Source: a virus. From it: a stretch of DNA of 10,965 nucleotides. Made by a program: the position numbers and the translations under genes. The notes beneath the pieces were generated by a model. It saw only the letters and a list, made by a program, of their open reading frames with translations, did no database searches and was not told where the DNA came from. Numbering within the stretch: the first letter of the stretch is position 1; each line of letters opens with the position of its first letter. Shown piece after piece: positions 1 through 10,965 of this stretch. The stretch lies in the UHGV virus genome UHGV-1359962, one strand, 5' to 3'.

Positions 1-1347
1 CTTACTGGTCAGTTTGGTGACATGTTAGCCCGTATTGAGGCTGGGGAGTTTCCAGCAAGTACAATTTTGCTAGTTGAGAGTATCGACCGTATAGGCCGAT
101 TAGAGCATCTTGAAACAGAAGCCTTGATGAACCGCATCTTAGGCAACGGGATAGAGATTCACACATTGCAAGATGGCCTTATCTACACAAAGGATGCTTT
201 AGCCGATGACCTTGGCATAAGCATCATCCAGCGTGTCAAAGCCTACATAGCGCATCAGGAATCTAAGCAGAAATCTTTCCGTGTTAGTCAGAAGTGGGAA
301 CAACGTGCAAAACTTGCCCTTGCTGGTGAACAACGTCTTACAAAGATGGTTCCCGGATGGATTGACCCCGATACTTTCAAGTGCAATGAACACGCTGAGA
401 CTGTAAGACTGATTTTCAAGCTGCTGCTAGATGGTGAAAGTCTGCATAACATTGCACGTCACCTACAGGCTAATAACATTAGTTCATTCTCACGGCGTAA
501 AGATGCTAACGGGTTTAGTGTTCACTCTGTGCGTACTATCTTAAGGTCAGAGACAACGATAGGCACACTACCAGCATCACAACGCAATGACCGCCCCGCT
601 ATACCGAACTACTACGAAGCCGCTATAGATGTATCAACGTTCAATAAAGCTCAAGAGATTCTCGATAAAAACCGTAAAGGCCGTACACCTGCAAGTGATA
701 ACCCATTAACGATTAACATCTTCAAGGGATTATTCCGGTGTCAGTGTGGGGCTAGTGTTCACCCTACAGGGACTAAGAATAAGTATCAGGGTGTTTATCG
801 GTGCAATAACCATCTTGACGGTCGCTGTGATGTTCAACCGTTGAAGCGTAAACCGTTTGACCGATGGATGATTGATAATTTTCTGGGGATGATTGACGTG
901 GGGAATGATGGAGAATCAGAGAGGAAGATTGCAGCGTTACAGCATGAGGTTGAAATTGTCACAGCCAGAATCAAGAAAGCTACCGCCCTACTTCTTGAGA
1001 TGGATGATATTGATGAACTAAAAATTCAGCTTAAGGAACTGAACCAGAAGCGCACAGAACTACAGACCACGATTGATAACATGAGGCGTAAGGCTTCACT
1101 CACTGATAAGGAACTACCCCAGCTTAAAGATATTGACCTGACAACTAAAGCGGGTCGTGTCGAGTGTCAATTAATTTTGTCCAAACATCTAAAAGGGCTT
1201 ACATTGGGTAAGGATACGGTAACTGTAACGCTACAGAACGACACTGAAATAACCATACCTACAGACCCGCTACCGCTAAATGATGGAACATCAATCTTTG
1301 AAATTGCTGAGAAAAATCTTTTGAATATTGACACTTTCCAACTGTAG
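1..1347 (+). CDS. Large serine recombinase (integrase/resolvase family), C-terminal ~449 codons; 5' end runs off the window start
   Basis: Frame 1 is open from position 1 to TAG at 1345-1347. Translation shows the end of a serine-recombinase catalytic domain (TILLVESIDRIGR), a recombinase-domain-like block (ETVRLIFKLLLDGESLHNIARHLQANNI ... SVHSVRTILRSETTIGTL), a Cys-rich zinc-ribbon-like motif (FRCQCGASVHPTG...YRCNNHLDGRC) and a coiled-coil-like C-terminus (ERKIAALQHEVEIVTARIKKATALLLEMDDIDELKIQLKELNQKRTELQ). Family assignment is by motif recognition, no search run. Confidence 0.85.
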   Translation, partial: LTGQFGDMLARIEAGEFPASTILLVESIDRIGRLEHLETEALMNRILGNGIEIHTLQDGLIYTKDALADDLGISIIQRVKAYIAHQESKQKSFRVSQKWEQRAKLALAGEQRLTKMVPGWIDPDTFKCNEHAETVRLIFKLLLDGESLHNIARHLQANNISSFSRRKDANGFSVHSVRTILRSETTIGTLPASQRNDRPAIPNYYEAAIDVSTFNKAQEILDKNRKGRTPASDNPLTINIFKGLFRCQCGASVHPTGTKNKYQGVYRCNNHLDGRCDVQPLKRKPFDRWMIDNFLGMIDVGNDGESERKIAALQHEVEIVTARIKKATALLLEMDDIDELKIQLKELNQKRTELQTTIDNMRRKASLTDKELPQLKDIDLTTKAGRVECQLILSKHLKGLTLGKDTVTVTLQNDTEITIPTDPLPLNDGTSIFEIAEKNLLNIDTFQL

Positions 1348-1356
1348 CAATCAATC

Positions 1357-1374
1357 AGGGGGCTATGCCCCCCT
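1357..1374. terminator. GC-rich hairpin between convergent stop codons (1347 plus, 1379 minus); candidate bidirectional terminator
   Basis: GGGGGC (1358-1363), loop TAT, GCCCCC (1367-1372). It sits exactly between the two convergent genes. The flanking T-tracts are weak on both strands, so confidence is limited. Confidence 0.4.
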
Positions 1375-1378
1375 TCTA

Positions 1379-2167
1379 TCAATATCTCTTGTTCGGATTC
1401 ACTGAGTACTTTTTAAGCTTTGAAGCTACCCGACCAGCGTTACTATTAGCATTGGTGACGTTGGTTTTTTCAGCTTCTGTTAAGTCTGAATAGTCCAGCT
1501 TCCAAGCCTTATTACATTTAATCTGAGCATCGAGAATATCATTTCTGATAGCTGGAGCGTAACCGGATACATCGCTAATATCCATTAGCTCTTTGCACGA
1601 TAGCATAGGCGCGTTATTGCGTTCAGTGGTCACGTTACCTGCATTCTTCTTACTGGTCACACCACCGTCATTAGTGGTAGCCGTTTTGCCAGTGGCAGCC
1701 GAAATATCAGTTTGCCCCACAATAGCTTTAAAGTTAATTTCCTGAAAAGTTAGCTGGATTCTCAGGCCGTTTGAAATACCAACATCTTTTGAGGCTTTAA
1801 AGCTCGTAATAATGGAATCATCAATTTTAATCCCATCTTTACAGATGACAGAAATAATCTGCTTCTGGTCACGCCAGTTTTCAAGGGTTTCGATGAAGTT
1901 TTCTACTAATTGACCCTGACGAGTTAATAATAAGCTTCCTTCATAGCCAACTACAACGACACCACTAATAGTGATTGTTCTGGGTGCTCTTTGCACATTA
2001 TCTGTGACAGTTTGCCCTGATTGCATGTTCTGTGTAGTCACCTGCATAGGACTATCAAATTCCATGTTTTCAGTTGCTGATAAGGTTAAGAAGGCATCTA
2101 CATTATCTCTTAAGTGGAAATAGATGCCATCTTTGCCACTGTAACGAATCTGATTAGAGTAAATCAT
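1379..2167 (-). CDS. Hypothetical protein, 262 aa, immediately downstream of the tape-measure-like gene; tail-associated role is possible only by position
   Basis: ATG at 2167-2165 preceded by AAGGAG (complement of 2174-2179) with 6-nt spacing. The ORF-track start at 2188 is a TTG and is less likely. Stop TGA at 1381-1379. No recognisable domain; the sequence has a hydrophobic beta-like stretch ([18 protein letters not shown]) and a Thr/Asn/Gly-rich segment. Confidence 0.6.
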
Positions 2168-2242
2168 TAAATTCTCCTTTGATTTCAAAGGCTTAGTGTA
2201 TTTTAATCATTTTTAACCAAGCCTTTGATATATAAGTATTTT

Positions 2243-2289
2243 CTCTGTTAAGCGTGAGCTACGTAAATTCTATTTTTCAGTGCGGGTAT
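2243..2289. promoter_or_regulatory. Conserved ~45-bp element (CTCTGTTAAGCGTGAGCTACGTAAA ... GGGTAT), copy upstream of the 262-aa gene
   Basis: 25-nt block identical to 4519-4543, followed by a similar ATTTTT..GGGTAT tail. Lies in the 135-bp gap between the TMP-like gene stop (2324) and the 262-aa gene start (2167). Confidence 0.45.
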
Positions 2290-2323
2290 TAACTTTGCTT
2301 TATTCACGTAGAACACCGTTAAA

Positions 2324-4504
2324 TCAATCATCTTCTGGGAATGATGAACTTAATAACGTAGCTTCTGCATATTGGTCGTAGATATTACTGCTAAAGGTCA
2401 TAAAGCTGGTTTCATCTGGTTTAATGGCAACTTCACCACCAAGTGAAACTTTCACAGGCTCCTGAATACGCTTACTTAAAGCAGAGATTTCATCCCTCAG
2501 ACCCTGAATATCTGCACTCGTTAATGATGCATCTTGTTTCATGGTAATTAATTCTGGATGATTGAATCTTGCAATATTCATTGTGGCATTGTTAAACAAT
2601 TCACCCATTGAACTAAAAATCCTGCCCCATCCTTCGTTAATCATATTCGGTTTATTAGGGTCACCAGAATACACAGGATTAAAGTCACTACCCACACCTA
2701 CCCCAGATGGATGCATATTAGCGTTTTTGACTACTTCCTGATTCATAAAATCCAGTGCTTTCTTCAATGCATATAAACCAAGAGTGACACCTCTGATTTG
2801 TGGAATCATTGAAGCTAATGCTAACGCTGTTTCATAACCGTCATCAGCATAACCAATTGCAAGAGCACTACCTACACCACCAGCTACACCTTTCAGTTTT
2901 CCACCACCTTTACCAGTAGCTACCTGACCAGCCACCTGATTAGCTCTTGTACCTAACGTTGTGATTGCTCTTGTCAGGTTCATAACCCCTGTAGTAGCAC
3001 TGAATAGTGTCTTTGCAGATAACGCTATAGCAAGACCTTTGACAAAATTGATAAAACCATCACCGACTTCATCAAGTAGTTTTCGTTTAGTGTCATCAAG
3101 GCTGTAATAGAACTTCTTAGTCTGTAGAATCCAGCCTTCAAGGTGATTGTTAAAGATACGGATGTCATCTACACCAGCTTTAAGCATGTCGATAAGTCCA
3201 CCGATAGCATCACCAGCGATAGAAGAACTCATACCCATTTCACTAAGCAGGTTACTCAGGCTGGATAAGAAGCCGTTTAGCTCATCCTGTGAACCTGAGA
3301 AGATTTTCACCATCGTATCATCCCAGTTGTTAGCCAGTTTCCCTAAAGCTGTCTGAGTGCTCTTAGCGACTTCAGCCCAGCCACCCGCTTTATCAATCAT
3401 CAAGCCCATCTGTTTAGCGACTTTAGGGAGAGTATCACTACTTAAAATCTTCCCGTTTTTCATGGCTGCATCAAGCTCTGTAGCAGTCATACCCAGTGCT
3501 TCAGCGAATAGCTTAAATGCACCAGCCATACGGTCACCTAACTGTCCACGAAGCTCTTCAGCCTGAATCTTGCCCTTAGAAGCCATCTGCTCAAAAGCTT
3601 TCAAAATGCCGTTTAGCTCGTCGTTAGAAAGCCCCATTAAGCGACTCATAGCCGTTGCATTACCAAATAGTTCCTGTGTCTGTTCCTGTGACATAGAACC
3701 CTGAGCACCTGCTGCAAACTTAGCGTAGCTTGACAGCCCTTCAGAGATATTAAGACCTGTCTTGTCTGCTAAATTTCGAATAAATACCTCAGCCTCAGAT
3801 GCTTTATCACCAAGTACAAACTTAGCGGCTCTCTGTGCGGAATCTCGTTTAAGACCTGCATTCATAATGGCCTTGTAAGCGTTAAGAGCACCCATCACAG
3901 AGTAAAATGCACCAGATAATTTAATTGCATTGCTTGCAAGATTATTAAATGCGTCGCTTGTATTATTAATGCTGGTGGTCTTTGTCTGTGACCTGAGTTT
4001 ATTCAACGTTTCACGAAGAGATTGATTTAATTTTGCAAGTTCAGCGTTAAACTTTTCACTTCCAATATTACCAGCCTTGCCGCTTAAACTGTAATATTGT
4101 GCTTTAAACATTTTAGCCATCAGCGGATTAATATCACCAAGCTTAGACATATTCACACTATGCGCTGCTGTGATTGCTCTGTTTCCGCTAATTCGTGGCT
4201 GTCTTGGTTGTTTTGGAGGATTGATAACGTCATTAACCTGACTTGTGAAACGGAAAACTCTAGTGTTTTTTGCTCTAGCTTCCAGACGGTCAAAGGTCTT
4301 ATTAAACTTCCTTTCAAGTTGCCCTAAAGAACTTGTCAGATTGCTGTCAAGTTGCTTGGTATCGACCTTAAACGCTCTATTCAAATTACGTTCAATTCTT
4401 TGTGCTGACTGCAAAGCTGCCTTTTCAACTCTTTGCAAGCCCTTAATAACGTTCTCGCTGAAGCCTAGCTCAACGATAAAACTATCAACTTTAAATTGTG
4501 CCAT
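2324..4504 (-). CDS. Phage tail tape-measure-like protein, 726 aa
   Basis: Long ORF, ATG at 4504-4502, stop TGA at 2326-2324. Predicted helical N-terminal half. The segment MSRLMGLSNDELNGILKAFEQMASKGKIQAEELRGQLGDRMAGAFKLFAEALGMTATELDAAMKNGKILSSDTLPKVAKQM resembles the conserved tape-measure domain as I recall it, and Gly-rich hydrophobic stretches (GQVATGKGGGKLKGVAGGVGSALAIGYADDG) are typical of TMPs. The SD-like GAGGTG lies 11 nt upstream of the ATG, so the exact start is uncertain. Confidence 0.75.
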   Translation of the reverse strand: MAQFKVDSFIVELGFSENVIKGLQRVEKAALQSAQRIERNLNRAFKVDTKQLDSNLTSSLGQLERKFNKTFDRLEARAKNTRVFRFTSQVNDVINPPKQPRQPRISGNRAITAAHSVNMSKLGDINPLMAKMFKAQYYSLSGKAGNIGSEKFNAELAKLNQSLRETLNKLRSQTKTTSINNTSDAFNNLASNAIKLSGAFYSVMGALNAYKAIMNAGLKRDSAQRAAKFVLGDKASEAEVFIRNLADKTGLNISEGLSSYAKFAAGAQGSMSQEQTQELFGNATAMSRLMGLSNDELNGILKAFEQMASKGKIQAEELRGQLGDRMAGAFKLFAEALGMTATELDAAMKNGKILSSDTLPKVAKQMGLMIDKAGGWAEVAKSTQTALGKLANNWDDTMVKIFSGSQDELNGFLSSLSNLLSEMGMSSSIAGDAIGGLIDMLKAGVDDIRIFNNHLEGWILQTKKFYYSLDDTKRKLLDEVGDGFINFVKGLAIALSAKTLFSATTGVMNLTRAITTLGTRANQVAGQVATGKGGGKLKGVAGGVGSALAIGYADDGYETALALASMIPQIRGVTLGLYALKKALDFMNQEVVKNANMHPSGVGVGSDFNPVYSGDPNKPNMINEGWGRIFSSMGELFNNATMNIARFNHPELITMKQDASLTSADIQGLRDEISALSKRIQEPVKVSLGGEVAIKPDETSFMTFSSNIYDQYAEATLLSSSFPEDD

Positions 4505-4518
4505 TGTTCATATTTCAC

Positions 4519-4563
4519 CTCTGTTAAGCGTGAGCTACGTAAAAAATAATTTTTGGTGGGTAT
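4519..4563. promoter_or_regulatory. Conserved ~45-bp element, copy abutting the RBS of the TMP-like gene
   Basis: CTCTGTTAAGCGTGAGCTACGTAAA at 4519-4543 is identical to 2243-2267, and the tail ATTTTTGGTGGGTAT matches ATTTTTCAGTGCGGGTAT. It ends 14 nt from the TMP start codon. Confidence 0.45.
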
Positions 4564-4595
4564 ATCTGTTCAGAAGATTTCACGTAGCACACATA

Positions 4596-4638
4596 CAAAA
4601 AAGGGAGAAACTACCGAATAATATCGATAATCTCTCCC
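4596..4638 (-). terminator. Candidate rho-independent terminator (minus strand) after the 71-aa gene
   Basis: On the minus strand GGGAGAGA (complement of 4638-4631) pairs with TTTCTCCC (complement of 4610-4603) around a 20-nt loop, followed by TTTTTTGT (complement of 4602-4595). The loop is long, so the call is tentative. Confidence 0.4.
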
Positions 4639-4686
4639 CGTGTTATAGATTCGATAGAACCTATCTCATACACCCAACCAATTCTT

Positions 4687-4902
4687 TTAATGCATGACAA
4701 GATAATGTAGTTCCGTTTCACCTATGATTTGAGCATCAGAAGGAATACGGTCGATACACCATTTTGGAATCTTGCGTGTTTTTGGTTTGCGTGAGGTGAT
4801 AATTTGATGTTTGGTTTTAATTCTTAAGACTGGCTTAGTTTGTAACTTTAAGTTTTCACAAACAGACTTAATAGTTTCATAGCGTTCTGTTAAATCAATC
4901 AT
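4687..4902 (-). CDS. Small basic hypothetical protein, 71 aa
   Basis: ATG at 4902-4900 preceded by GAGGTGA with short spacing. It starts 22 nt after the stop of the 234-aa gene (operon arrangement). Lys/Arg-rich middle (KTKHQIITSRKPKTRKIPKW). No domain recognised. Confidence 0.5.
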   Translation of the reverse strand: MIDLTERYETIKSVCENLKLQTKPVLRIKTKHQIITSRKPKTRKIPKWCIDRIPSDAQIIGETELHYLVMH

Positions 4903-4924
4903 TCATCACCTCACATATGCATAA

Positions 4925-5629
4925 TTAAACAGCCTTGCTAAATTCTCGTGGAACACTCAGAAAATCATTGAAGCTGATAATCTGTGCCAACTCTTGACGG
5001 TACTCCTTAGCCAGCGCTTGATGGTCACTAATCAGCTTAGCCAGTCTTGATTTCAGCAAATTAATCTCATTTTCTCTTGCTTTCATCAGTTTCTCTTTGG
5101 CAATTTCTTCAAGCTCAGCTTGTGATTTATCAGCAACAATTAGAGACAGTCGATGTGGTGCTCTGACAGCTCTTTCTGTACGAACAACTCTTTGACCTTC
5201 TGGTAAATCTGCAATCACTTTACCAATCTCTACAGGGTCATACCCCCAACCGTCACGGTCTAGTCGAGAGAAATAAGCATAAGAATTGGTTTGAAGCTCC
5301 ATCAAAATAGCCATTTCGTCAATTTCGTCTTCAAGTTTGGACTGAATTTTCTCGTAAACACTTCTCATTGCTTCTTGAGAGTCTCGAAGGTCTTTGAAAT
5401 ATTTGCGTTGCAGCTTCAGTTTCAAATCAAGCTCACATTCCTCATTCATCGAAAAATCAATTTCAACTCTTGGAATCTCGATTGGTTCTGGTGGAATATA
5501 TGGACCTTTATTTACTTCGTGCGATTCCCGCCAAGCTCTATCAAAAGATTCACGCAAAGTTAATTCGTGAATATCAAGTGCACTTGGTCTGTTCTCAACA
5601 ATCATTTCGTGTTCATTACGAATGGACAT
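4925..5629 (-). CDS. Acidic coiled-coil-like hypothetical protein, 234 aa
   Basis: ATG at 5629-5627 with AGAGGAA upstream; stop TAA at 4927-4925. Charged, heptad-like regions (EAMRSVYEKIQSKLEDEIDEMAILMEL; ELEEIAKEKLMKARENEINLLKSRLAKLISDHQALAKEYRQELAQI). No family recognised. Confidence 0.7.
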   Translation of the reverse strand: MSIRNEHEMIVENRPSALDIHELTLRESFDRAWRESHEVNKGPYIPPEPIEIPRVEIDFSMNEECELDLKLKLQRKYFKDLRDSQEAMRSVYEKIQSKLEDEIDEMAILMELQTNSYAYFSRLDRDGWGYDPVEIGKVIADLPEGQRVVRTERAVRAPHRLSLIVADKSQAELEEIAKEKLMKARENEINLLKSRLAKLISDHQALAKEYRQELAQIISFNDFLSVPREFSKAV

Positions 5630-5877
5630 TAATATTTTCCTCTTCTAAGATAATTTATGTTTCAGTTTTTAAAAAGCACACCTGACAGCCTACGAACTTA
5701 GAAGAGACTTAAAAGCGTTTGCCAAGTATGCTTTTTAAAAGCTGAAAAAAGCCCTAAACATAGGTGATTCGGATATTCATGGAATCATCCTCATCTGTGA
5801 AGGGCTTTGAAGGTTTGCTTTAACGTTAACGAAGTTTCAGGAAAAACTTTCTTTAAAAGCTCTGTTTAAAAACTCTT

Positions 5878-5907
5878 AAAGAAAACGCCCTAATCATGAG
5901 TTAGGGC
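5878..5907 (-). terminator. Rho-independent terminator (minus strand) downstream of the small-gene operon
   Basis: 7-bp stem GCCCTAA (5887-5893) / TTAGGGC (5901-5907) with a 7-nt loop. On the minus strand the hairpin is followed by GTTTTCTTT (complement of 5886-5878). Confidence 0.5.
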
Positions 5908-6208
5908 AAAGCTGTAAGGGTTCAATAATGAATGATTAAGCACTTTTTGATATATAGCCTATCTAGTGGGCTAAATAGGCCATGTAGCGAAAAGCATTGC
6001 ACCTTTCAGAATAACTATCCCTAGATGTAGATGGAATTGTTGAAAGAAATAAGAGAGAATTGCTCTCCCATACTTAAAATTATGGCATATTTAAGGTTAT
6101 TTGTCAACAGCTTTTTAACAGATTGGTAACATTAATTCTTATTTACCGTGTTACCTACCCAGCAACCAACAAATAAACCCAAAGCTGTCCAAGCAATTAT
6201 TAAGCCCA

Positions 6209-6532
6209 TTAATGCACCACCTTCGAATCCGTAACCAAAATATTGTCAGCGTACAAAATTGCTATAGCTGCCTTGAGATATCTTTCAGGGCTAACGCTGT
6301 ATCGGTTCGTTTGCTCGATAACCAATCTTTTCATGTTGCTGTCTTTAATTGGTAGCATCATTCGAGGCTCGTTAAACTCCACCAACTGAATAAAATCTTC
6401 AATTGTTTCTGAGTTATCAGCCATTAGCCTTAACAGCCTGTCAAAGTCAATGCTAACACCTACATCAGTGAAAGCCTGAATCATCATAGCGGTGTCGCTA
6501 TCAACGAAAATCTGTAATTCGTAATTGTTCAT
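6209..6532 (-). CDS. Hypothetical protein, 107 aa
   Basis: ATG at 6532-6530 (MNNYELQIF...) preceded by AAGGAG (complement of 6542-6547). The ORF-track start at 6565 is a TTG 11 codons upstream and less likely. Stop TAA at 6211-6209. Confidence 0.6.
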   Translation of the reverse strand: MNNYELQIFVDSDTAMMIQAFTDVGVSIDFDRLLRLMADNSETIEDFIQLVEFNEPRMMLPIKDSNMKRLVIEQTNRYSVSPERYLKAAIAILYADNILVTDSKVVH

Positions 6533-6550
6533 TTTTAAAATCTCCTTTTT

Positions 6551-6673
6551 ACCAGACCTCCTCAATCGCTCTGTAACGAGCTAAACAGTCTTTTTCAGGG
6601 GTAGCCTGTACAGTGGTATTACCCACCCTAAAATAAGGTAGTTTTTTGCGTTAGAATGCGATTGAGAGCGTCT
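6551..6673. repeat. Copy 1 of a ~100-120 bp paired element with conserved 19-nt and 21-nt end blocks
   Basis: TCAATCGCTCTGTAACGAG at 6562-6580 and AGAATGCGATTGAGAGCGTCT at 6653-6673 are identical to 8230-8248 and 8298-8318. The interior is similar but diverged. Lies in the gap between the HNH-like gene and the 107-aa gene. Confidence 0.6.
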
Positions 6674-6687
6674 GAGAAGCTGTTTTT

Positions 6688-6975
6688 CTAATTTCTCTTA
6701 AAGTCTCGGACTTGCATAAGATTTTTTGGTCTGGTATCGGCTCTGTTACCATTTCGATGGATAATTTGCTTGTTGGATTGATAGCCATGATAAAGGAACC
6801 AGACAACATATTTCACGTAGAAAGTATATCGGCCTATATTAAATGTTTTGTTGCCGTAGTCGTCGGTATTTATCGTGACTGACTCTCCATCAGACCAGTA
6901 CAGGGAATCACTGGATTCATCATAGATAAGGTGTTCTGTAAAATATCGTCTAACATCTTCATGCCAAGGTTTCAT
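6688..6975 (-). CDS. HNH_3-like (homing-endonuclease-type HNH) small protein, 95 aa
   Basis: ATG at 6975-6973 with strong GGAGG 4-5 nt upstream. Motifs LIYDESSDSLYWSDGESV and IHRNGNRADTRPKNL resemble the HNH_3-type nuclease signature (His ... GN ... N-L) as I recall it. Shorter than typical members. Its start overlaps the upstream gene stop (ATGA). Confidence 0.55.
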   Translation of the reverse strand: MKPWHEDVRRYFTEHLIYDESSDSLYWSDGESVTINTDDYGNKTFNIGRYTFYVKYVVWFLYHGYQSNKQIIHRNGNRADTRPKNLMQVRDFKRN

Positions 6976-7187
6976 AAAACCTCCTCACCCCAATAACCTA
7001 ATTCAATCTTGTGACGCTCAAACCATTCCGGTTTAACTGCTGTTTTCAGTACTTCATTTGGGCCAATGGCTTTAATGAAAATATCTTTTGAGTTATGGAT
7101 GTCACCGAATCCGTTTCCTTTAATCAGGAGGTCGGAGATGTGGCGAATCATTTTATCTGTGTGGTATTCAAAGGTAACGCATAGCAT
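6972..7187 (-). CDS. Hypothetical protein, 71 aa
   Basis: ATG at 7187-7185 with GGAGG 4 nt upstream. Start overlaps the stop of the upstream 92-aa gene by 1 nt (TAATG) and its stop overlaps the HNH-like gene start (ATGA), indicating translational coupling. Confidence 0.5.
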   Translation of the reverse strand: MLCVTFEYHTDKMIRHISDLLIKGNGFGDIHNSKDIFIKAIGPNEVLKTAVKPEWFERHKIELGYWGEEVL

Positions 7188-7465
7188 TAAACCTCCATCG
7201 CTAACTTGTGAATCTTAAGACTCAATAGACGGGCAATATCAATTTTAAAGCCGTTAAGTCCCTTCAAAGTATCTAAAGCGTCCTGAGTAATTCGGATGTG
7301 TTTACGACCTTTAGAGACTGGATATCTAAGTAAATCCGACTCAGTAACCTCTTTAGCAATTGCAAGCTGCATAACAGTCTGATGAGGCAAGTTAGTAGCT
7401 CGTTTAATTCTGGCAAGCTCGTTAAAAGCTTCCTCTGAAATACGGGTCAAAGTGTGTTTCTTCAT
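7187..7465 (-). CDS. Hypothetical protein, 92 aa
   Basis: ATG at 7465-7463 with AGAGGAA upstream, directly adjacent to the stop of the 185-aa gene. No domain recognised with confidence. Confidence 0.55.
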   Translation of the reverse strand: MKKHTLTRISEEAFNELARIKRATNLPHQTVMQLAIAKEVTESDLLRYPVSKGRKHIRITQDALDTLKGLNGFKIDIARLLSLKIHKLAMEV

Positions 7466-8023
7466 TTAAAATTCCTCTGTAACTAAATACGGGTCAAACT
7501 CGAAATCTGGTTGCTCGTTTTCCATTGGCTCAATATTTCCAACGGCAATATGATGCTCAACAACACCAATTAACTTTGCGCACATTACAGCAAGCAAAGC
7601 GCAATATTTATCGCTTGGTAATTCATGGCTAAGTCTGGTTGCTTGACGCTGAAGATAATTTGTCACGGTAGCTGAGTTAATTTCATCAAGATTCTTTAGA
7701 ATATAAAATAGCTTTCTGTTGTATTTTGGGTGACCTTCGCTTCTGCAAAATCCGATAATTACATCTTCAAACTTGCGTGGTAATTGCTCGTAAGAATCAA
7801 CGTTAGCCAAATAATTTTTGATGCTGTTCTGGGTGCTCTTTCTGGTTGACATATAACGACTCCTCGGTGTAATTGCCCGAATTACTTCGTCAATGCCTTT
7901 GCGTTCTGCTCTGGTGAACTTGGGTACTTCGTGGCTGGTGGGGTTGTTTGTGTAAGCGTAGGAGTTGTGCTTGTTGCGTTCTCTTGATGCCTGAAGCATC
8001 GCTCTAAATTCTCTGTCGTTCAT
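7466..8023 (-). CDS. Hypothetical protein, 185 aa, first gene of the minus-strand small-gene operon
   Basis: ATG at 8023-8021 downstream of a candidate sigma70-type promoter. The SD-like AAGGA is 11 nt upstream; an out-of-frame ATG at 8027-8025 is better spaced, so the start is somewhat uncertain. Confidence 0.6.
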   Translation of the reverse strand: MNDREFRAMLQASRERNKHNSYAYTNNPTSHEVPKFTRAERKGIDEVIRAITPRSRYMSTRKSTQNSIKNYLANVDSYEQLPRKFEDVIIGFCRSEGHPKYNRKLFYILKNLDEINSATVTNYLQRQATRLSHELPSDKYCALLAVMCAKLIGVVEHHIAVGNIEPMENEQPDFEFDPYLVTEEF

Positions 8024-8071
8024 TCATAAGCCAGTCCTTATAATTGTTAATTCTCTGTTAACTTATATACA

Positions 8072-8100
8072 ATACTAGCATTTTCAAAGACTAATGTCAA
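8072..8100 (-). promoter_or_regulatory. Candidate sigma70-type promoter for the minus-strand operon
   Basis: On the minus strand: -35 TTGACA (complement of 8100-8095), 17-nt spacer, -10 TAGTAT (complement of 8077-8072). Confidence 0.5.
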
Positions 8101-8107
8101 GCATTTT

Positions 8108-8137
8108 TTAACATTTCATTAACATCTGTGGTATAAT
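8108..8137 (+). promoter_or_regulatory. Candidate plus-strand promoter with extended -10, divergent from the operon promoter
   Basis: -35-like TTAACA (8108-8113), 18-nt spacer, TG at 8129-8130 and -10 TATAAT at 8132-8137 (TGgTATAAT). Confidence 0.55.
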
Positions 8138-8219
8138 GGTTTTATGGGGAGAGTAAAATATGAGGCGTGGCTATGAGGTATCAACTATCGAGAATGGCCG
8201 CATGGTTATTGCATTGCAC

Positions 8220-8318
8220 ACAGACCTCTTCAATCGCTCTGTAACGAGTTAAATGGCCTCTTCAGGTCAACTCATAAGGTCAGGTACTTTTTGTGTCAGA
8301 ATGCGATTGAGAGCGTCT
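8220..8318. repeat. Copy 2 of the paired element, within the leader of the membrane-protein gene
   Basis: Blocks at 8230-8248 and 8298-8318 are identical to copy 1. Located between the plus-strand promoter and the ATG at 8333. Confidence 0.6.
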
Positions 8319-8332
8319 TACAAGGAAATTTA

Positions 8333-8521
8333 ATGGTAAATCTCCCTCCTGAACTGGGGTCACCTGATGTATGGGCTGGTGGAGGTGTTGGACTTATTGC
8401 GGGTCTGCTGCTTCGCTATTTCATCGTCAGAGTGTTTATCGTGTTCAGATTGTTTGGTCGTGAATGGTCGTTTGACCTCAAGGACAGGACCAGAACAGAC
8501 AACCACACAGAACCCCGCTAA
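8333..8521 (+). CDS. Small membrane protein, 62 aa, one predicted transmembrane helix
   Basis: ATG at 8333 with AAGGA 6 nt upstream; stop TAA at 8519-8521. Translation MVNLPPELGSPDVWAGGGVGLIAGLLLRYFIVRVFIVFRLFGREWSFDLKDRTRTDNHTEPR has one hydrophobic helix followed by a charged C-terminus. Preferred over the alternative frames at 8291 and 8367 because of the RBS and protein-like composition. Confidence 0.5.
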   Translation: MVNLPPELGSPDVWAGGGVGLIAGLLLRYFIVRVFIVFRLFGREWSFDLKDRTRTDNHTEPR

Positions 8522-8534
8522 ACTCCCTTCAAAA

Positions 8535-8575
8535 CCCCTATACCATCTCGTACAGGGGTATCTTTAGCATTTTGT
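8535..8575 (+). terminator. Candidate terminator after the membrane-protein gene
   Basis: Stem CCCCTATAC (8535-8543) / GTACAGGGG (8550-8558) with one mismatch, then a T-rich tail TATCTTTAGCATTTTGTG. Confidence 0.35.
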
Positions 8576-8635
8576 GCTATCTATTAAAAAACGGCTTGAC
8601 AGAACCGGAAAGCTGTATCTATCAAGTATTCACCT

Positions 8636-8816
8636 CTCTGACAGTAATTTCTAAAAGTTCTTATTTTTCAATGAGTTGTAATTAGCCAATATAAAGGACT
8701 GACAAGACCCTTCACAATTAACTCTGTAACCTTAACAGTAATTTCTAAAAATGCTTATTTTTCAATAAGTTGTAATCACCCAATATATAAGACTGTCCAG
8801 TACCTTCACAGATAAC
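8636..8816. repeat. Two tandem direct repeat units of about 86 and 95 bp
   Basis: Unit 1 (8636-8721) and unit 2 (8722-8816) align along their length. Shared blocks include CAGTAATTTCTAAAA, CTTATTTTTCAAT, AGTTGTAAT and GACTG.C.AG..CCTTCACA..TAAC. Confidence 0.7.
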
Positions 8817-9603
8817 TTCAAGCCCTCTTAACCGCCCCACTAATCGGGAGAAGAGCGATAACCCCAGAGAGGGAAGCTCCCTTCTTAATCGGCCTCCTAA
8901 CCAGTCTTTACAAACCTTGTTCAAGGTAATCACAATAGTTTTTCTTCCCTCGGTTTCCTGTGTTCCTCGGTTTATCTATTGAGACTTGAAAGACCTCTGT
9001 AAGTGCTCTCTTAGCGAGAGAAAAATCATTCATAGTGACCCCAAGCGAAGTGCCCCTCTAAAAAGATTTTTTAGCTATTTTGCTTAAAACCATATCAAAC
9101 GATACATTTTATTGATTTAGGTCAAAGACAAAAACATTGACAAAATGGTATGATTGTTCACATGACCTTACTTAACAGATTCTTAAGAGCTTTGAAACGA
9201 CCTACTTAACAAGGTCACTACCTCTGGTCTTATCGTTCCCTTCTTTCTAGGTAGTCATCTGTTAAGAACTTTTCAGTTTTATTCTTAAGATAATTGTTAA
9301 GATGATACTCTCCCTTCGGGTTATATCGTATCTCTTCCCCCGTTAAACACTCCTTCCTAACAACTTCATAGTTATCTGTCAAGTACCTTTGAAGATTCTA
9401 TCAAGACCTCTAAATCTGACCTGATATAGATGCTGTGAAGGCATGTTCTCTAGGTCTGTGTAGCTTACTTAGTGGGAAGAGAGGGTGATACATGAGAAAG
9501 AACCCCTCCTACTTAAAAGAATTATTTGACATTATTGTGATGGTTATTTAAGATGCAACTGTACAGACACCTTCATCGGTTTCTCTACACCTTCCTATGG
9601 CTT

Positions 9604-9664
9604 GGTCTGGCTAGGTAGGGTGGGGTCTGGTTAGGTAAGGTGGGGTATGGTTAAGTGTGGGTGG
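9604..9664. repeat. Three tandem ~20-bp iterons
   Basis: GGTCTGGCTAGGTAGGGTGG (9604-9623), GGTCTGGTTAGGTAAGGTGG (9624-9643), GGTATGGTTAAGTGTGGGTGG (9644-9664). Confidence 0.75.
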
Positions 9665-9696
9665 ATTGTCGTAGCCACGTTAAAAATCGACTTATA

Positions 9697-9720
9697 GGGA
9701 CTCTTTCGGGAGTCCTTTTT
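9697..9720 (+). terminator. Rho-independent-type terminator hairpin with UUCG loop
   Basis: GGACTCT (9698-9704) pairs with GGAGTCC (9709-9715) around the loop TTCG (9705-9708), followed by TTTTT (9716-9720). Confidence 0.55.
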
Positions 9721-10791
9721 AGTTTGTATAAAATCTGTACAGTAACTTTTCAGATTCTGAAAATTTTTATAAAAAAATAATCAGGCCTCTTCTAAGTCTC
9801 TTCAACCAAATCTTTCAAAAATATCTACACTCAATTGATGGCTGTTAAGTACCCCAGATTCACGATATAGCACCCCCTTTGCAAAAGCAGTTAAAATATC
9901 TATAACCAACTATTGACTTTCTTCATAGCATCTGTTAAGTCCACCTCAAGAAACCTTCATCACACTTCAAAGCATCTATCAAGAAGGTTTAACCTATCAA
10001 TAGCTGTAACATTTTGTAGTTCTGTGAAGTCCTATCCAGTTTTCTCTGTAACAGACACAAACTTCTGCGACCTTATGTATCAATGACTTAGAATACATGC
10101 TCTCAAGGTTCTGTATAGTCTCTTATCTTCAAATACACAAAACCCTTATAAATCAGTACTGATACGTATACAGTTCGTTTTTAACATAATGGCTGTTTTA
10201 CGCACTAATCGTGTTCTACATGAAATCTGTATAGATATTAAGGTGTCTGTAAGTGATTTTTTAAGAAGGGACTACGAAGATTTGACAAGGTAACTATGAG
10301 GTTGATTCCTAGAACAACCGAATCAACTATAACCATCACTTTTCAATATTCACGCAGGATATCGTTAAGTTTCTTGATAGTTACACCATGTGACCAACTG
10401 CATAGATAGCGTTATATACTCCTGTATATATCACTTTTCTAGGAGTCTGGAGAGGGACGACTAACACGATACAGTTTACCCTGAAAAGAGACTTCACAGA
10501 TTCTTTATATATTTCAATAAGTTATGCTAAAAAGAGACTATACCGATACTGCATAGAATCTGTGTAAAACTGCTTAGATACTTGGGAAAATGCCTTTAAA
10601 TTGCATAGTCATAGGGGTTGGAACAAGCCCAACTTCACCTGATATTGTCCTGTAATTAACAGGTTTCTTAGAAAACCGAATAGACTTCATTCAAGGGTCA
10701 TTGTATTGTAGCTATTCGGCATTGTAGCATTAGCCATAACGTTTATAAGTTCATCTTTAAATGATAATCAATTGCATGGGAGTTTATCACC

Positions 10792-10965
10792 ATGAGACAC
10801 GTAATTACATACCTTCGGTACAGTTCAGCCATACAAGGCGCTGAAGGTGCTGATTCAACCAGACGACAAAATGAGCTATTCAAACAGTGGTTAAGGAAGA
10901 ATAGCGATGCTCAGGTAGTTGCGTCTTTCAGTGATGAAGGGTTGAGTGGTTACAAAGGTAAGCAC
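10792..10965 (+). CDS. Serine recombinase N-terminal catalytic segment (58 codons); 3' end runs off the window end; probably the same gene as 1-1347
   Basis: ATG at 10792 preceded by GGGAG (10779-10783). Translation MRHVITYLRYSSAIQGAEGADSTRRQNELFKQWLRKNSDAQVVASFSDEGLSGYKGKH carries the serine-recombinase N-terminal signature (Y-x-R-x-SS-x-x-Q with the presumed catalytic Ser, later D-x-G-x-SG). The frame ends exactly on a codon boundary at 10965. Confidence 0.7.
   Translation, partial: MRHVITYLRYSSAIQGAEGADSTRRQNELFKQWLRKNSDAQVVASFSDEGLSGYKGKH

What the first reader, a model, noticed from the sequence alone, without database searches (positions are those of the whole stretch)
8636..8816. Two tandem ~90-bp direct repeat units
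Units at 8636-8721 and 8722-8816 align along their whole length with scattered substitutions and a short indel near the 5' end. Each unit begins with a CTCTG-type box and ends with a GACTGnCnAG..CCTTCACA..TAAC block, so each carries two copies of the box family. They could be paired promoters for small RNAs, large iterons, or repeated binding modules.
Basis: seen in the sequence. Interest (0 to 1): 0.45.

Follow-up and report, generated by a model that had tools for sequence, protein, structure and literature searches.

The report
Tandem repeat in satellite control region
The two ~90-bp repeats are real and conserved, and they lie in the gene-free control region of an apparently undescribed 11-kb E. 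coli element that looks like a parasite of Felix-O1-type phages; they are built partly from an 8-bp box that also fills the phage's terminal repeats, so they most likely act as protein-binding DNA rather than as small-RNA genes.

Summary
Cores 8641-8723 and 8735-8817 match at 70/83 positions without gaps (period 94); shuffled sequence gives at most 44/83.

The window is an exact circle of 10,965 bp. It carries a large serine recombinase, a tape-measure gene and a Dit-like tail gene related to Felixounavirus, and about 2.7 kb with almost no ORFs. Hundreds of E. coli chromosomes hold integrated relatives. It looks like a phage satellite, and I found no paper describing it.

The unit occurs in 1, 2 or 3 copies among 61 relatives. 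It stays 83-96% identical where synonymous sites of the neighbouring gene are only 50-70% identical.

Each unit has CTTNACAG-type boxes in both orientations around an invariant A/T-rich core. The box is about 10-fold enriched in the window. In helper-type phages it is arrayed with 11-bp phasing inside the 581-bp direct terminal repeat.

The unit itself has no homologue in the phage. It shows no conserved RNA fold, no terminator, no codon periodicity and no Rfam match.

Best reading (0.45): a repeated protein-binding DNA module, iteron-like, serving satellite replication, packaging or control. Main rival (0.3): tandem sigma-70 promoters for a noncoding transcript. Function was not tested.

The parts
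8641..8723 (.). Repeat unit 1, the 83-nt core
   Evidence: TRF; the repeat finder family D1; nhmmer with the family profile, E=1e-27
8724..8734 (.). 11-nt linker CTGTAACCTTA between the cores. With its flanks it forms the overlapping opposed boxes CTGTAACC and CTTAACAG.
   Evidence: Sequence; conserved in 29 two-copy arrays
8735..8817 (.). Repeat unit 2, the 83-nt core, 70/83 identical to unit 1
8590..8635 (+). Nearly invariant block just upstream of unit 1. It contains the box CTTGACAG (8595-8602) and a sigma-70-like TTGACA-N18-TATCAA. The -10-like part is not kept in the divergent relatives L190 and L166.
   Evidence: Alignments; box
8638..8667 (+). Promoter-like site in unit 1: CTGACA, 18-nt spacer, TATTTT. 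Bases 8638-8644 (CTGACAG) are also a variant box.
   Evidence: variants in relatives keep TAnnnT
8732..8761 (+). Promoter-like site in unit 2: TTAACA, 18-nt spacer, TATTTT. It overlaps the box CTTAACAG at 8731-8738.
8666..8678 (+). IHF-consensus-like core TTTCAATGAGTTG (12/13 of WATCAANNNNTTR) after a T-tract, inside the invariant A/T-rich core of unit 1
   Evidence: Relative L166 has a 13/13 match at this position. The pattern is not enriched in the window as a whole.
8760..8772 (+). IHF-consensus-like core TTTCAATAAGTTG in unit 2
8699..8717 (.). Opposed box pair at the 3' end of unit 1: CTGACAAG (8699-8706) and CTTCACAA (8710-8717). The first lies in a short imperfect dyad.
8793..8811 (.). 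Opposed box pair at the 3' end of unit 2: CTGTCCAG (8793-8800) and CTTCACAG (8804-8811)
8535..8558 (+). Hairpin CCCCTATAC-CATCTC-GTACAGGGG followed by TATCTTT. It ends the small + strand ORF 8333-8521 and bounds the module on the left. Relatives carry the reverse-complement version of the same hairpin.
9696..9717 (+). First strong intrinsic terminator downstream on the + strand. It is the only candidate end for any transcript started in the units.

Best explanation
The two units are duplicated copies of one cis-acting DNA module. The module lies in the gene-free control region of an approximately 11-kb integrative element that appears to be a satellite of Felix-O1-type (Felixounavirus) phages.

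Each module has a defined layout. A box of the CTTNACAG family comes first. An invariant A/T-rich core follows (CTTATTTTTCAATRAGTTGTAAT, with an IHF-like motif). Then come three to four more boxes in alternating orientation.

The same box is arrayed every 11 bp inside the helper-type phage's direct terminal repeat. I therefore infer that the module recruits the factor that recognises the phage's terminal-repeat region, whether that factor is phage-encoded or host-encoded, possibly together with a DNA-bending protein. The resulting nucleoprotein complex would serve satellite replication, packaging or their control. This is how iterons work in the noncoding region of the Vibrio satellite PLE, and how the R sites plus the IHF site work in lambda cosB.

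Copy number (1 to 3 in relatives) would tune the number of binding sites and is not essential.

Shown: the repeat, its conservation, its copy-number variation, the box enrichment, the shared box in the phage terminal repeat, and the absence of RNA-structure and coding signals.

Inferred: protein binding, the identity of the factor, and the process served.
For: Repeat:
- It is real and far beyond chance.

Element context:
- The window is an exact circle. Base 10965 joins base 1 inside the serine-recombinase gene.
- The tape-measure gene and the Dit-like gene are related to Felixounavirus.
- Integrated copies lie at different chromosomal sites, and 549 of 5426 complete E. coli genomes match the noncoding region.

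Conservation:
- The unit is 83-96% identical to the window's in relatives where four-fold sites of the adjacent gene are only 50-70% identical.
- Most unit columns are invariant across 29 arrays.
- Two copies is the common state in E. coli genomes.

Boxes:
- CTTNACAG occurs 19 times in the window against 1.8 expected, and no shuffle out of 200 reached 19. Eleven of these lie in 8595-10499.
- The phage half-genome L128 has 39 against 9.5 expected. Eleven lie in one orientation within 700 bp of the noncoding region.
- TRF finds CTTAACAGATT with period 11 in 12.9 copies there.
- That phage region contains the annotated 581-bp direct terminal repeat of phage Pr103Blw.

Homology of neighbouring satellite DNA to the phage:
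- 9190-9242 matches the terminal-repeat interior at 83%. 9730-9933 aligns across the repeat boundary.

Evidence against an RNA or coding role:
- No Rfam hit.
- RNAalifold gives -9.45 kcal/mol over 223 columns with 0 compensatory pairs.
- The array is among the least structured stretches of the region.
- There is no 3-nt periodicity.
- There is no complementarity to the phage longer than 13 nt.

Precedent:
- PLE has a 2.7-kb noncoding region with four repeat types, one of which is the RepA iteron of its origin (PMC7145576).
Against: - No binding protein was identified. No replication initiator is recognisable among the satellite ORFs, and the structure prediction of the adjacent 185-aa protein failed (pLDDT 42).
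- The unit as a whole has no homologue in the phage genome (nhmmer best E=0.39). Within the unit the boxes are not 11-bp phased as they are in the phage.
- The A/T-rich core is as invariant as the boxes, and box binding alone does not explain that.
- The IHF-like pattern is not enriched in the window (21 found, 20.6 expected).
- The A/T-rich cores are only among the ten least stable windows, not the minimum.
- Two divergent relatives replace the first box by unrelated sequence yet keep a -35-like hexamer 17-18 nt upstream of TATTNN. That favours the promoter rival.
- All + strand signals in 8597-9717 point the same way and end at one terminator, which is also compatible with transcription.
Confidence: 0.45

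Rival explanations
1. The units are tandem sigma-70 promoters, possibly working with the conserved TTGACA block at 8597. They fire rightwards and make a noncoding transcript of about 0.9-1.1 kb that ends at the terminator at 9696-9717. That transcript would carry the phage-like GGT-repeat element at 9600-9691. Transcription could also prime or activate an origin, as in T4 and T7 origins that combine a promoter with an A/T-rich region (my knowledge).
For: - Each unit scores 9/12 as TTAACA or CTGACA, 18-nt spacer, TATTTT on the + strand.
- Among 83 distinct unit sequences, the changes in the -10-like hexamer keep TAnnnT (TACTTT, TATATT, TATTCT), with one exception. The four most variable bases fall in the spacer.
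- There are no indels between the two hexamers in 29 arrays.
- Divergent relatives L190 and L166 have different sequence upstream but still carry TTGATA-18-TATTCA and TTTACA-17-TATTAA.
- A helper-phage intergenic promoter reads TTGACA-17-TATTTT.
- The first terminator downstream is on the same strand.
Against: - Sites of this quality are common by chance: 15 found against 8.1 +/- 2.0 expected in the region.
- The divergent variants lose the T at the last -10 position.
- The 25 bases downstream of the hexamer are just as invariant, which a promoter does not require.
- There is no ORF or structured RNA downstream in the array.
- Most other CTTNACAG boxes in the region have no -10-like hexamer at the right distance.
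- In the phage the same boxes sit every 11 bp, which cannot be promoters.
Confidence: 0.3
2. Only one unit is functional, whatever its role. The second copy is a neutral by-product of unequal recombination between satellite variants, so the tandem arrangement has no function of its own.
For: - Relatives carry 1, 2 or 3 copies.
- The 3' half of the last unit co-varies with the sequence or cargo to its right. For example, the ...AAAGGACTGACAAGACCC type lies next to the methyltransferase cassette.
- Internal units are mostly of another type. This pattern is what exchange by homologous recombination within units would leave.
- One unit in L134 carries the dyad in inverted form.
Against: - Both copies stay highly conserved. 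Two copies is the majority state in complete E. coli genomes: 349 of 405 matching genomes cover at least 80% of the two-copy query, though a few of these are single-copy places counted twice.
- The linker and junction are nearly invariant.
Confidence: 0.12
3. Each unit encodes a small regulatory RNA.
For: Promoter-like hexamers are present in each unit. A short dyad near the 3' end pairs in 89% of alignment cells and has two pairs with changes on both sides.
Against: - No Rfam match at E<=1.
- The consensus fold is about 0 kcal/mol per unit on either strand, with 0 compensatory pairs over the array.
- The dyad is thermodynamically weak (0 to -5.4 kcal/mol, mean -2.1 against -1.0 for shuffles). 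Its covariation score is matched by the control slid by +1 column.
- No terminator follows either unit.
- There is no extended complementarity to the phage.
Confidence: 0.05
4. The repeat lies in a small protein-coding gene, such as the - strand ORF 8745-8933, or it encodes a repeated peptide.
For: A 62-codon ORF with a GTG start overlaps unit 2 on the - strand.
Against: - Column variability has no 3-nt periodicity (lag 3 r=0.13, below lags 1 and 2).
- Relatives have indels of 1-4 nt in the TATA tract and large indels just right of the array.
- RefSeq annotates nothing under the match in any listed genome.
Confidence: 0.02

Closest known systems
Noncoding region of the Vibrio cholerae satellite PLE, with its repeat families and RepA iterons (Barth et al. 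2020, PMC7145576)
   Same: - Both are satellites of a virulent myovirus that integrate with a large serine recombinase.
- Both carry about 2.7 kb of noncoding DNA holding several repeat families.
- In PLE one repeat family is the origin iteron, a semi-palindromic direct repeat around an A-tract. The units here also combine inverted sub-repeats with A/T tracts.
   Different: - There is no sequence similarity.
- No RepA_N-like or other initiator is recognisable here.
- The unit is 94 bp, much longer than a typical iteron.
- Its short boxes are shared with the helper's terminal repeat, which is not reported for PLE.
- Function has not been tested here.
Box arrays in the direct-terminal-repeat region of Felixounavirus genomes (tootiki MN850647 53.45-55.09 kb; Pr103Blw MW481326 ends)
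   Same: - The same 8-bp box, CTTNACAG or CTTAACAGAT, is strongly enriched in both.
- Neighbouring satellite segments are truly homologous to this phage region.
   Different: - The 94-bp unit itself has no detectable homologue in the phage.
- Phage boxes are in one orientation with 11-bp phasing. In the unit they alternate in orientation and flank a 45-bp A/T-rich core.
Lambda cosB: terminase-binding R sites interspersed with the IHF site I1 (my knowledge, not tested here)
   Same: The architecture is similar: short repeated protein-binding boxes flank an IHF-type bend site in a region that serves DNA packaging.
   Different: - Neither terminase nor IHF binding is shown here.
- The IHF match is 12/13 and is not statistically enriched.
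- The helper packages by direct terminal repeats, not by cos ends.
Tandem early promoters and promoter-plus-A/T-rich origins of virulent phages: T7 A1-A3, T4 oriF/oriG, the T7 primary origin (my knowledge)
   Same: Promoter-like hexamers repeat in one direction at about 40-nt and 94-nt spacing and are followed by A/T-rich DNA.
   Different: No gene lies downstream. Promoter quality is moderate (9/12). No transcription data are available.

Membership tests
Origin iterons (plasmid or satellite ori, for example PLE repeat 3) | Several direct repeats of a 17-30-bp binding site at regular spacing | tested here: inconclusive
   There are two 83-nt cores with period 94. Inside them are 8-bp boxes in both orientations at irregular spacing. 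Copy number is 1-3 in relatives.
Origin iterons (plasmid or satellite ori, for example PLE repeat 3) | An adjacent A/T-rich DNA-unwinding element | tested here: inconclusive
   The unit cores 8645-8684 and 8737-8776 are among the ten least stable 40-bp windows of the element, but they are not the minimum.
Origin iterons (plasmid or satellite ori, for example PLE repeat 3) | A cognate initiator protein encoded by the element | tested here: not met
   Pfam, PHROGs and NCBIfam find no Rep, primase or helicase. PDB sequence searches find nothing significant. The AlphaFold model of ORF185 is unusable. A novel initiator cannot be excluded.
Origin iterons (plasmid or satellite ori, for example PLE repeat 3) | Demonstrated binding and a requirement for replication | not testable with these tools
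   This needs EMSA or footprinting and deletion analysis during phage infection.
Sigma-70 promoter | -35 and -10 hexamers with a 16-18-nt spacer | tested here: met
   CTGACA-18-TATTTT at 8638-8667 and TTAACA-18-TATTTT at 8732-8761, both 9/12. Such sites are common by chance (15 found against 8.1 expected).
Sigma-70 promoter | Conservation focused on the key promoter positions across relatives | tested here: inconclusive
   Close relatives keep TAnnnT and vary the spacer. Divergent relatives keep the geometry but lose the last T. The flanks are equally invariant.
Sigma-70 promoter | A mapped transcription start | not testable with these tools
   No expression data were available.
Small regulatory RNA gene | Membership of a described RNA family | tested here: not met
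   cmscan of the whole window at E<=1 gave only a spurious plant microRNA hit elsewhere.
Small regulatory RNA gene | A conserved secondary structure with compensatory changes | tested here: not met
   Over 29 arrays, 0 of 35 predicted pairs show a compensatory change. The per-unit consensus energy is about 0 on both strands.
Small regulatory RNA gene | An intrinsic terminator at the 3' end | tested here: not met
   The nearest + strand terminator is at 9696-9717. None lies in or after either unit.
IHF binding site | WATCAANNNNTTR with an upstream A/T tract | tested here: inconclusive
   12/13 matches at 8666-8678 and 8760-8772, each after a T-tract. L166 has 13/13 at the same place. The window-wide count equals chance (21 against 20.6).
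Felixounavirus terminal-repeat box array | CTTAACAG-type box | tested here: met
Felixounavirus terminal-repeat box array | 11-bp phasing in one orientation, and sequence homology to the phage region | tested here: not met
   Boxes in the unit alternate in orientation. nhmmer with the unit profile finds nothing in the phage.
Phage satellite (context of the repeat) | A small integrative element with an integrase that lacks capsid and terminase genes but shares genes or sites with a helper phage | tested here: met
   It is a 10,965-bp circle with a large serine recombinase. Only the tape-measure gene, the Dit-like gene and the HNH gene hit the phage. Chromosomal copies sit at tonB/yciI and inside yecE. 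The noncoding DNA is homologous to the phage terminal-repeat region.
Phage satellite (context of the repeat) | Helper-dependent induction, replication and packaging | not testable with these tools
   This needs infection experiments.

The most novel reading that the evidence does not exclude
The 94-bp units are the origin or packaging enhancer of a previously undescribed family of E. coli and Salmonella satellites that parasitise virulent Felix-O1-type phages. The units would work by molecular mimicry. They present the same CTTNACAG boxes that coat the helper's direct terminal repeats, and so capture the helper's end-recognition or replication factor for the satellite. Copy number would tune how strongly the satellite competes with the phage.
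Probability: 0.3. Interest if true: 0.8.

Novelty: new variant of a known kind. Interest (0 to 1): 0.55.

Why it matters
Satellites of virulent phages are known from very few systems (PLE with ICP1, PICMI), and their cis-acting DNA is what makes them replicate and get packaged. This repeat is conserved, variable in copy number and easy to mutate. It sits in a 2.7-kb noncoding region that copies motifs and segments from the terminal-repeat region of Felixounavirus, a phage genus widely used for Salmonella and E. coli typing and therapy.

If the units bind the factor that recognises the phage ends, they offer two things. They give a handle on the unknown packaging or replication signals of Felix-O1-type phages. 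They also help explain how a common chromosomal element, present in roughly 7-10% of complete E. coli genomes, could interfere with those phages.

If they are only promoters or a recombination scar, the finding is ordinary.

Tried and rejected
- **Structured small RNA.** Rejected. No Rfam hit and no consensus fold or covariation. The short dyad is weak.
- **Coding sequence.** Rejected. No periodicity and frequent indels.
- **Antisense RNA against the helper.** Rejected for the phage tested. The longest exact match to tootiki is 13 nt, which is chance level.
- **Homology of the unit to the phage or to other parts of the element.** None found (nhmmer).
- **All CTTNACAG boxes as -35 elements.** Rejected. 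Most have no -10-like hexamer at the right distance.
- **Attachment site.** Rejected. The attP core maps to about 10691-10703.
- **DnaA, CRP and TyrR-type sites.** I checked these by eye only and saw no convincing match.
- **IHF enrichment.** Not found window-wide.
- **Identity of a binding protein.** Pfam, PHROGs and NCBIfam were uninformative apart from a weak DndE-like hit for the 92-aa ORF, E=0.006. I recall DndE as belonging to the ribbon-helix-helix clan; that was not checked here. The PDB searches gave no significant match (best E=0.22 for ORF185, none for ORF92). The AlphaFold2 model of ORF185 from a shallow alignment had pLDDT 42 and was not searched further.
- **Wasted scan.** A 16-mer scan of genome contigs returned only chance hits. 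Loci L007-L126 should be ignored.
- **Literature.** Searches for a Felix-O1 or Felixounavirus satellite found nothing relevant.
- **Eight-copy concatemer idea.** Eight copies of the element (87.7 kb) would fill a helper head, but relatives are about 11.6 kb, so I dropped it as unsupported.

Full report
**Observation.** Tandem Repeats Finder reports a single array at 8641-8817 with period 94, 1.9 copies, 84% matches and no indels. The repeat finder gives two 83-nt copies, 8641-8723 and 8735-8817. An equivalent description is two ungapped cores separated by an 11-nt linker. The match is far beyond chance: P is about 1e-28, and the best 83-nt self-match in shuffles is 41-44 against 70 observed.

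**What the window is.** Base 10965 joins base 1 in frame inside a large serine recombinase gene, exactly as in an integrated E. coli copy. The window is therefore a complete 10,965-bp circle.

The - strand carries one operon, 8023 down to 1379. It includes a tape-measure protein and a Dit-like tail protein. The Dit-like protein is 72% identical and the tape measure 34% identical to those of Felixounavirus tootiki. Stretches of these genes reach about 90% DNA identity to other Felix-O1-type phages. No capsid, portal, terminase or replication gene is recognisable.

From 8023 to 10790 there is almost no ORF. Integrated relatives of about 11.5 kb lie between tonB and yciI in one genome and inside yecE in another. 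The noncoding region matches 549 of 5426 complete E. coli genomes, always on the chromosome. The adjacent 185-aa protein has 1089 clusters in E. coli, Salmonella and Shigella, all annotated as hypothetical.

Taken together, this is the anatomy of a phage satellite whose helper would be a virulent Felix-O1-type phage. Seven literature searches found no description of such an element.

**Comparative data on the repeat.** I compared 61 relatives: 2 E. coli genomes, 4 IMG/VR contigs and 55 metagenome contigs. The unit occurs once in roughly a third of them, twice in most, and three times in one, always with a 92-95-bp period. In complete E. coli genomes the two-copy form predominates.

The unit is 83-96% identical to the window's units even where four-fold degenerate sites of the neighbouring gene are only 50-70% identical. 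Most columns are invariant across 29 two-copy arrays. The variable positions are few:
- four bases in the A/T-rich part;
- a TAG/CAC alternative;
- the length of a (TA)n tract;
- the centre of a short dyad;
- two or three bases after CACAG.

The 3' half of the last unit co-varies with whatever lies to its right, for example a Dam-type methyltransferase cassette. This indicates that units serve as recombination joints between satellite variants.

**Anatomy of a unit.** Reading the + strand, a unit has five parts:
- a box, CTGACAG or CTTAACAG;
- GTAAYYTCTAAAA;
- four variable bases;
- the invariant CTTATTTTTCAATRAGTTGTAAT;
- a TATA tract, then a box in the opposite orientation inside a short dyad (CTGACAAG, CTGTCCAG or CTGTTCAG), then CTTCACAG.

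The linker contributes CTGTAACC. The 8-mer CTTNACAG occurs 19 times in the window against 1.8 expected, and 11 of these lie between 8595 and 10499.

**Link to the phage.** In phage tootiki the same box is four-fold enriched. Eleven copies in one orientation lie within 700 bp of a 1.64-kb noncoding region between convergent gene blocks. TRF finds CTTAACAGATT there with an 11-bp period.

That region is about 90% conserved across 257 Felixounavirus records. In phage Pr103Blw it contains the annotated 581-bp direct terminal repeats determined by PhageTerm. So the boxes fill the phage's terminal repeat.

Other parts of the satellite's noncoding region are homologous to the phage:
- 9190-9242 matches the repeat interior at 83%.
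- 9730-9933 aligns across the repeat boundary, which maps to about 9847/9848.
- 9600-9691 matches a GGT-rich repeat in a phage intergenic leader at 81%.

The 94-bp unit itself, however, has no detectable counterpart in the phage.

**Tests of an RNA or coding role.**
- No Rfam family matches.
- RNAalifold on 29 arrays gives -9.45 kcal/mol over 223 columns with no compensatory pair.
- Per-unit consensus energies are about 0 on both strands.
- The array is among the least structured stretches of the noncoding region.
- The short dyad pairs in 89% of cells and has two pairs with double changes. It is thermodynamically weak, and its covariation score is matched by a slid control. It may simply be a palindromic box.
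- There is no 3-nt periodicity.
- No terminator follows either unit.
- There is no complementarity to the phage beyond 13 nt.

**The promoter question.** Each unit contains TTAACA or CTGACA, an 18-nt spacer and TATTTT on the + strand. In close relatives the -10-like hexamer varies only at its middle positions. Two divergent relatives have unrelated sequence upstream but still place TTGATA or TTTACA 17-18 nt before TATTCA or TATTAA. A phage promoter reads TTGACA-17-TATTTT.

Several points weigh against a promoter. Such sites are frequent by chance (15 found against 8.1 expected). The divergent hexamers lack the critical last T. The 25 bases after the hexamer are equally invariant. Most boxes elsewhere have no -10 partner.

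The invariant core also reads as an IHF-type site: 12/13 in the window, and 13/13 in L166. That pattern is not enriched overall.

**Interpretation.** The best-supported reading is a repeated cis-acting DNA module that assembles a protein complex. The complex would use the same box-binding factor as the helper's terminal-repeat region, perhaps with a bending protein on the A/T-rich core. It would serve satellite replication, packaging or their control.

The closest precedent is the 2.7-kb noncoding region of the Vibrio satellite PLE. One of its four repeat families is the RepA iteron (PMC7145576). Lambda cosB (my knowledge) is an architectural parallel.

I put this reading at 0.45. No binding protein or initiator was found, and function is untested.

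Tandem sigma-70 promoters feeding a noncoding transcript that ends at 9696-9717 is the main rival (0.3).

That the second copy is a neutral recombination product is possible (0.12). Small-RNA genes (0.05) and coding sequence (0.02) are unlikely.

**Novelty and interest.** Repeats in satellite control regions are a known kind. This unit is new in sequence and unusually long. It is built from helper terminal-repeat boxes in what appears to be an undescribed satellite family, so I rate it a new variant of a known kind. By itself the repeat is moderately interesting. Its value lies in making the cis-acting logic of a common, unstudied Felix-O1 parasite directly testable.

Noticed in passing
window 1-10965: The whole window is an exact circular permutation of a satellite-like element of about 11 kb. 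It carries a large serine recombinase (10792-10965 joined to 1-1347), a tape-measure gene and a Dit-like gene related to Felixounavirus, and no capsid or terminase genes. Chromosomal copies occur in roughly 7-10% of complete E. coli genomes. I found no paper describing a Felix-O1-type satellite.
   Followed up: partly
window 9722-9940: This segment aligns with the helper-phage region that spans one boundary of the 581-bp direct terminal repeat (Pr103Blw record 581/582). The boundary maps to about window 9847/9848. It may be a mimic of the packaging cleavage site. The stretch 9800-10290 is almost invariant among 12 collinear relatives.
   Followed up: partly
window 9190-9242: The sequence GGTCACTACCTCTGGTCTTATCGTTCCCTTCTTTCT is 83% identical to a segment inside the phage terminal repeat. 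CTTNACAG boxes are in + orientation to its left (8595-9205) and in - orientation to its right (9259-10029).
   Followed up: partly
window 9600-9717: GGT-rich 20-bp tandem repeats (GGTCTGGTTAGGTAAGGTGG, 2.5 copies) plus a hairpin are 81% identical to an intergenic leader in Felixounavirus (tootiki 10135-10226). A second copy lies upstream of the tootiki gene at 11579. In the satellite a strong terminator follows at 9696-9717. Many relatives lack this block or have a different version.
   Followed up: partly
window 8820-9124; L001 10700-11680; L139 2160-3060: The stretch immediately right of the repeat array is a variable cargo site. Some relatives carry a DNA N6-adenine methyltransferase there on the opposite strand. 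RefSeq also annotates AP2/ERF-type proteins under matches to the noncoding region in some genomes.
   Followed up: partly
window 8023-8330, and 6553-6679 against 8221-8324: This is a divergent promoter-like region: - strand TTGACA-17-TAGTAT at 8100 and + strand TTAACA-18-TATAAT at 8108. A module of about 100 bp (CAGACCTCTTCAATCGCTCTGTAACGAG ... GAATGCGATTGAGAGCGTCT) is duplicated at 86-89% identity in the intergenic gap at 6553-6679.
   Followed up: no
window 2243-2289 and 4519-4565: A 47-nt direct repeat (CTCTGTTAAGCGTGAGCTACGTAAA...) lies immediately upstream of both the Dit-like gene and the tape-measure gene on the - strand. It contains the same box.
   Followed up: no
window 8535-8558; L134 unit 2: Two hairpins or dyads exist in relatives as exact reverse-complement versions. 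One is the terminator-like hairpin upstream of the array (CCCCTATACCATCTCGTACAGGGG against CCCCTGTACGAGATGGTATAGGGG). The other is the unit dyad (GAGAACTGACAAGTCTC against GAGACTTGTCAGTTCTC).
   Followed up: no
window 8333-8521 (+): A small ORF of 62 aa has a good ribosome-binding site (AAGGAA) and a hydrophobic segment. It is conserved in relatives and is the only clear + strand gene besides the recombinase.
   Followed up: no
window 7187-7465 (-): The 92-aa ORF has a weak NCBIfam match to the DNA-binding protein DndE (E=0.006). I recall DndE as belonging to the ribbon-helix-helix clan; that was not checked here. It is a candidate box-binding regulator.
   Followed up: no
window 5660-5747: A 28-nt-arm inverted repeat (86% complementary, 32-nt loop) lies in the gap upstream of the 234-aa ORF. 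It is the source of a spurious plant microRNA (MIR9563) hit in Rfam.
   Followed up: no
window 9436-9525 (+): This is one of the three lowest consensus folding energies in the noncoding region (-29.6 kcal/mol, structure conservation index 0.99 in 9 relatives). It may be a structured RNA or a DNA element.
   Followed up: no
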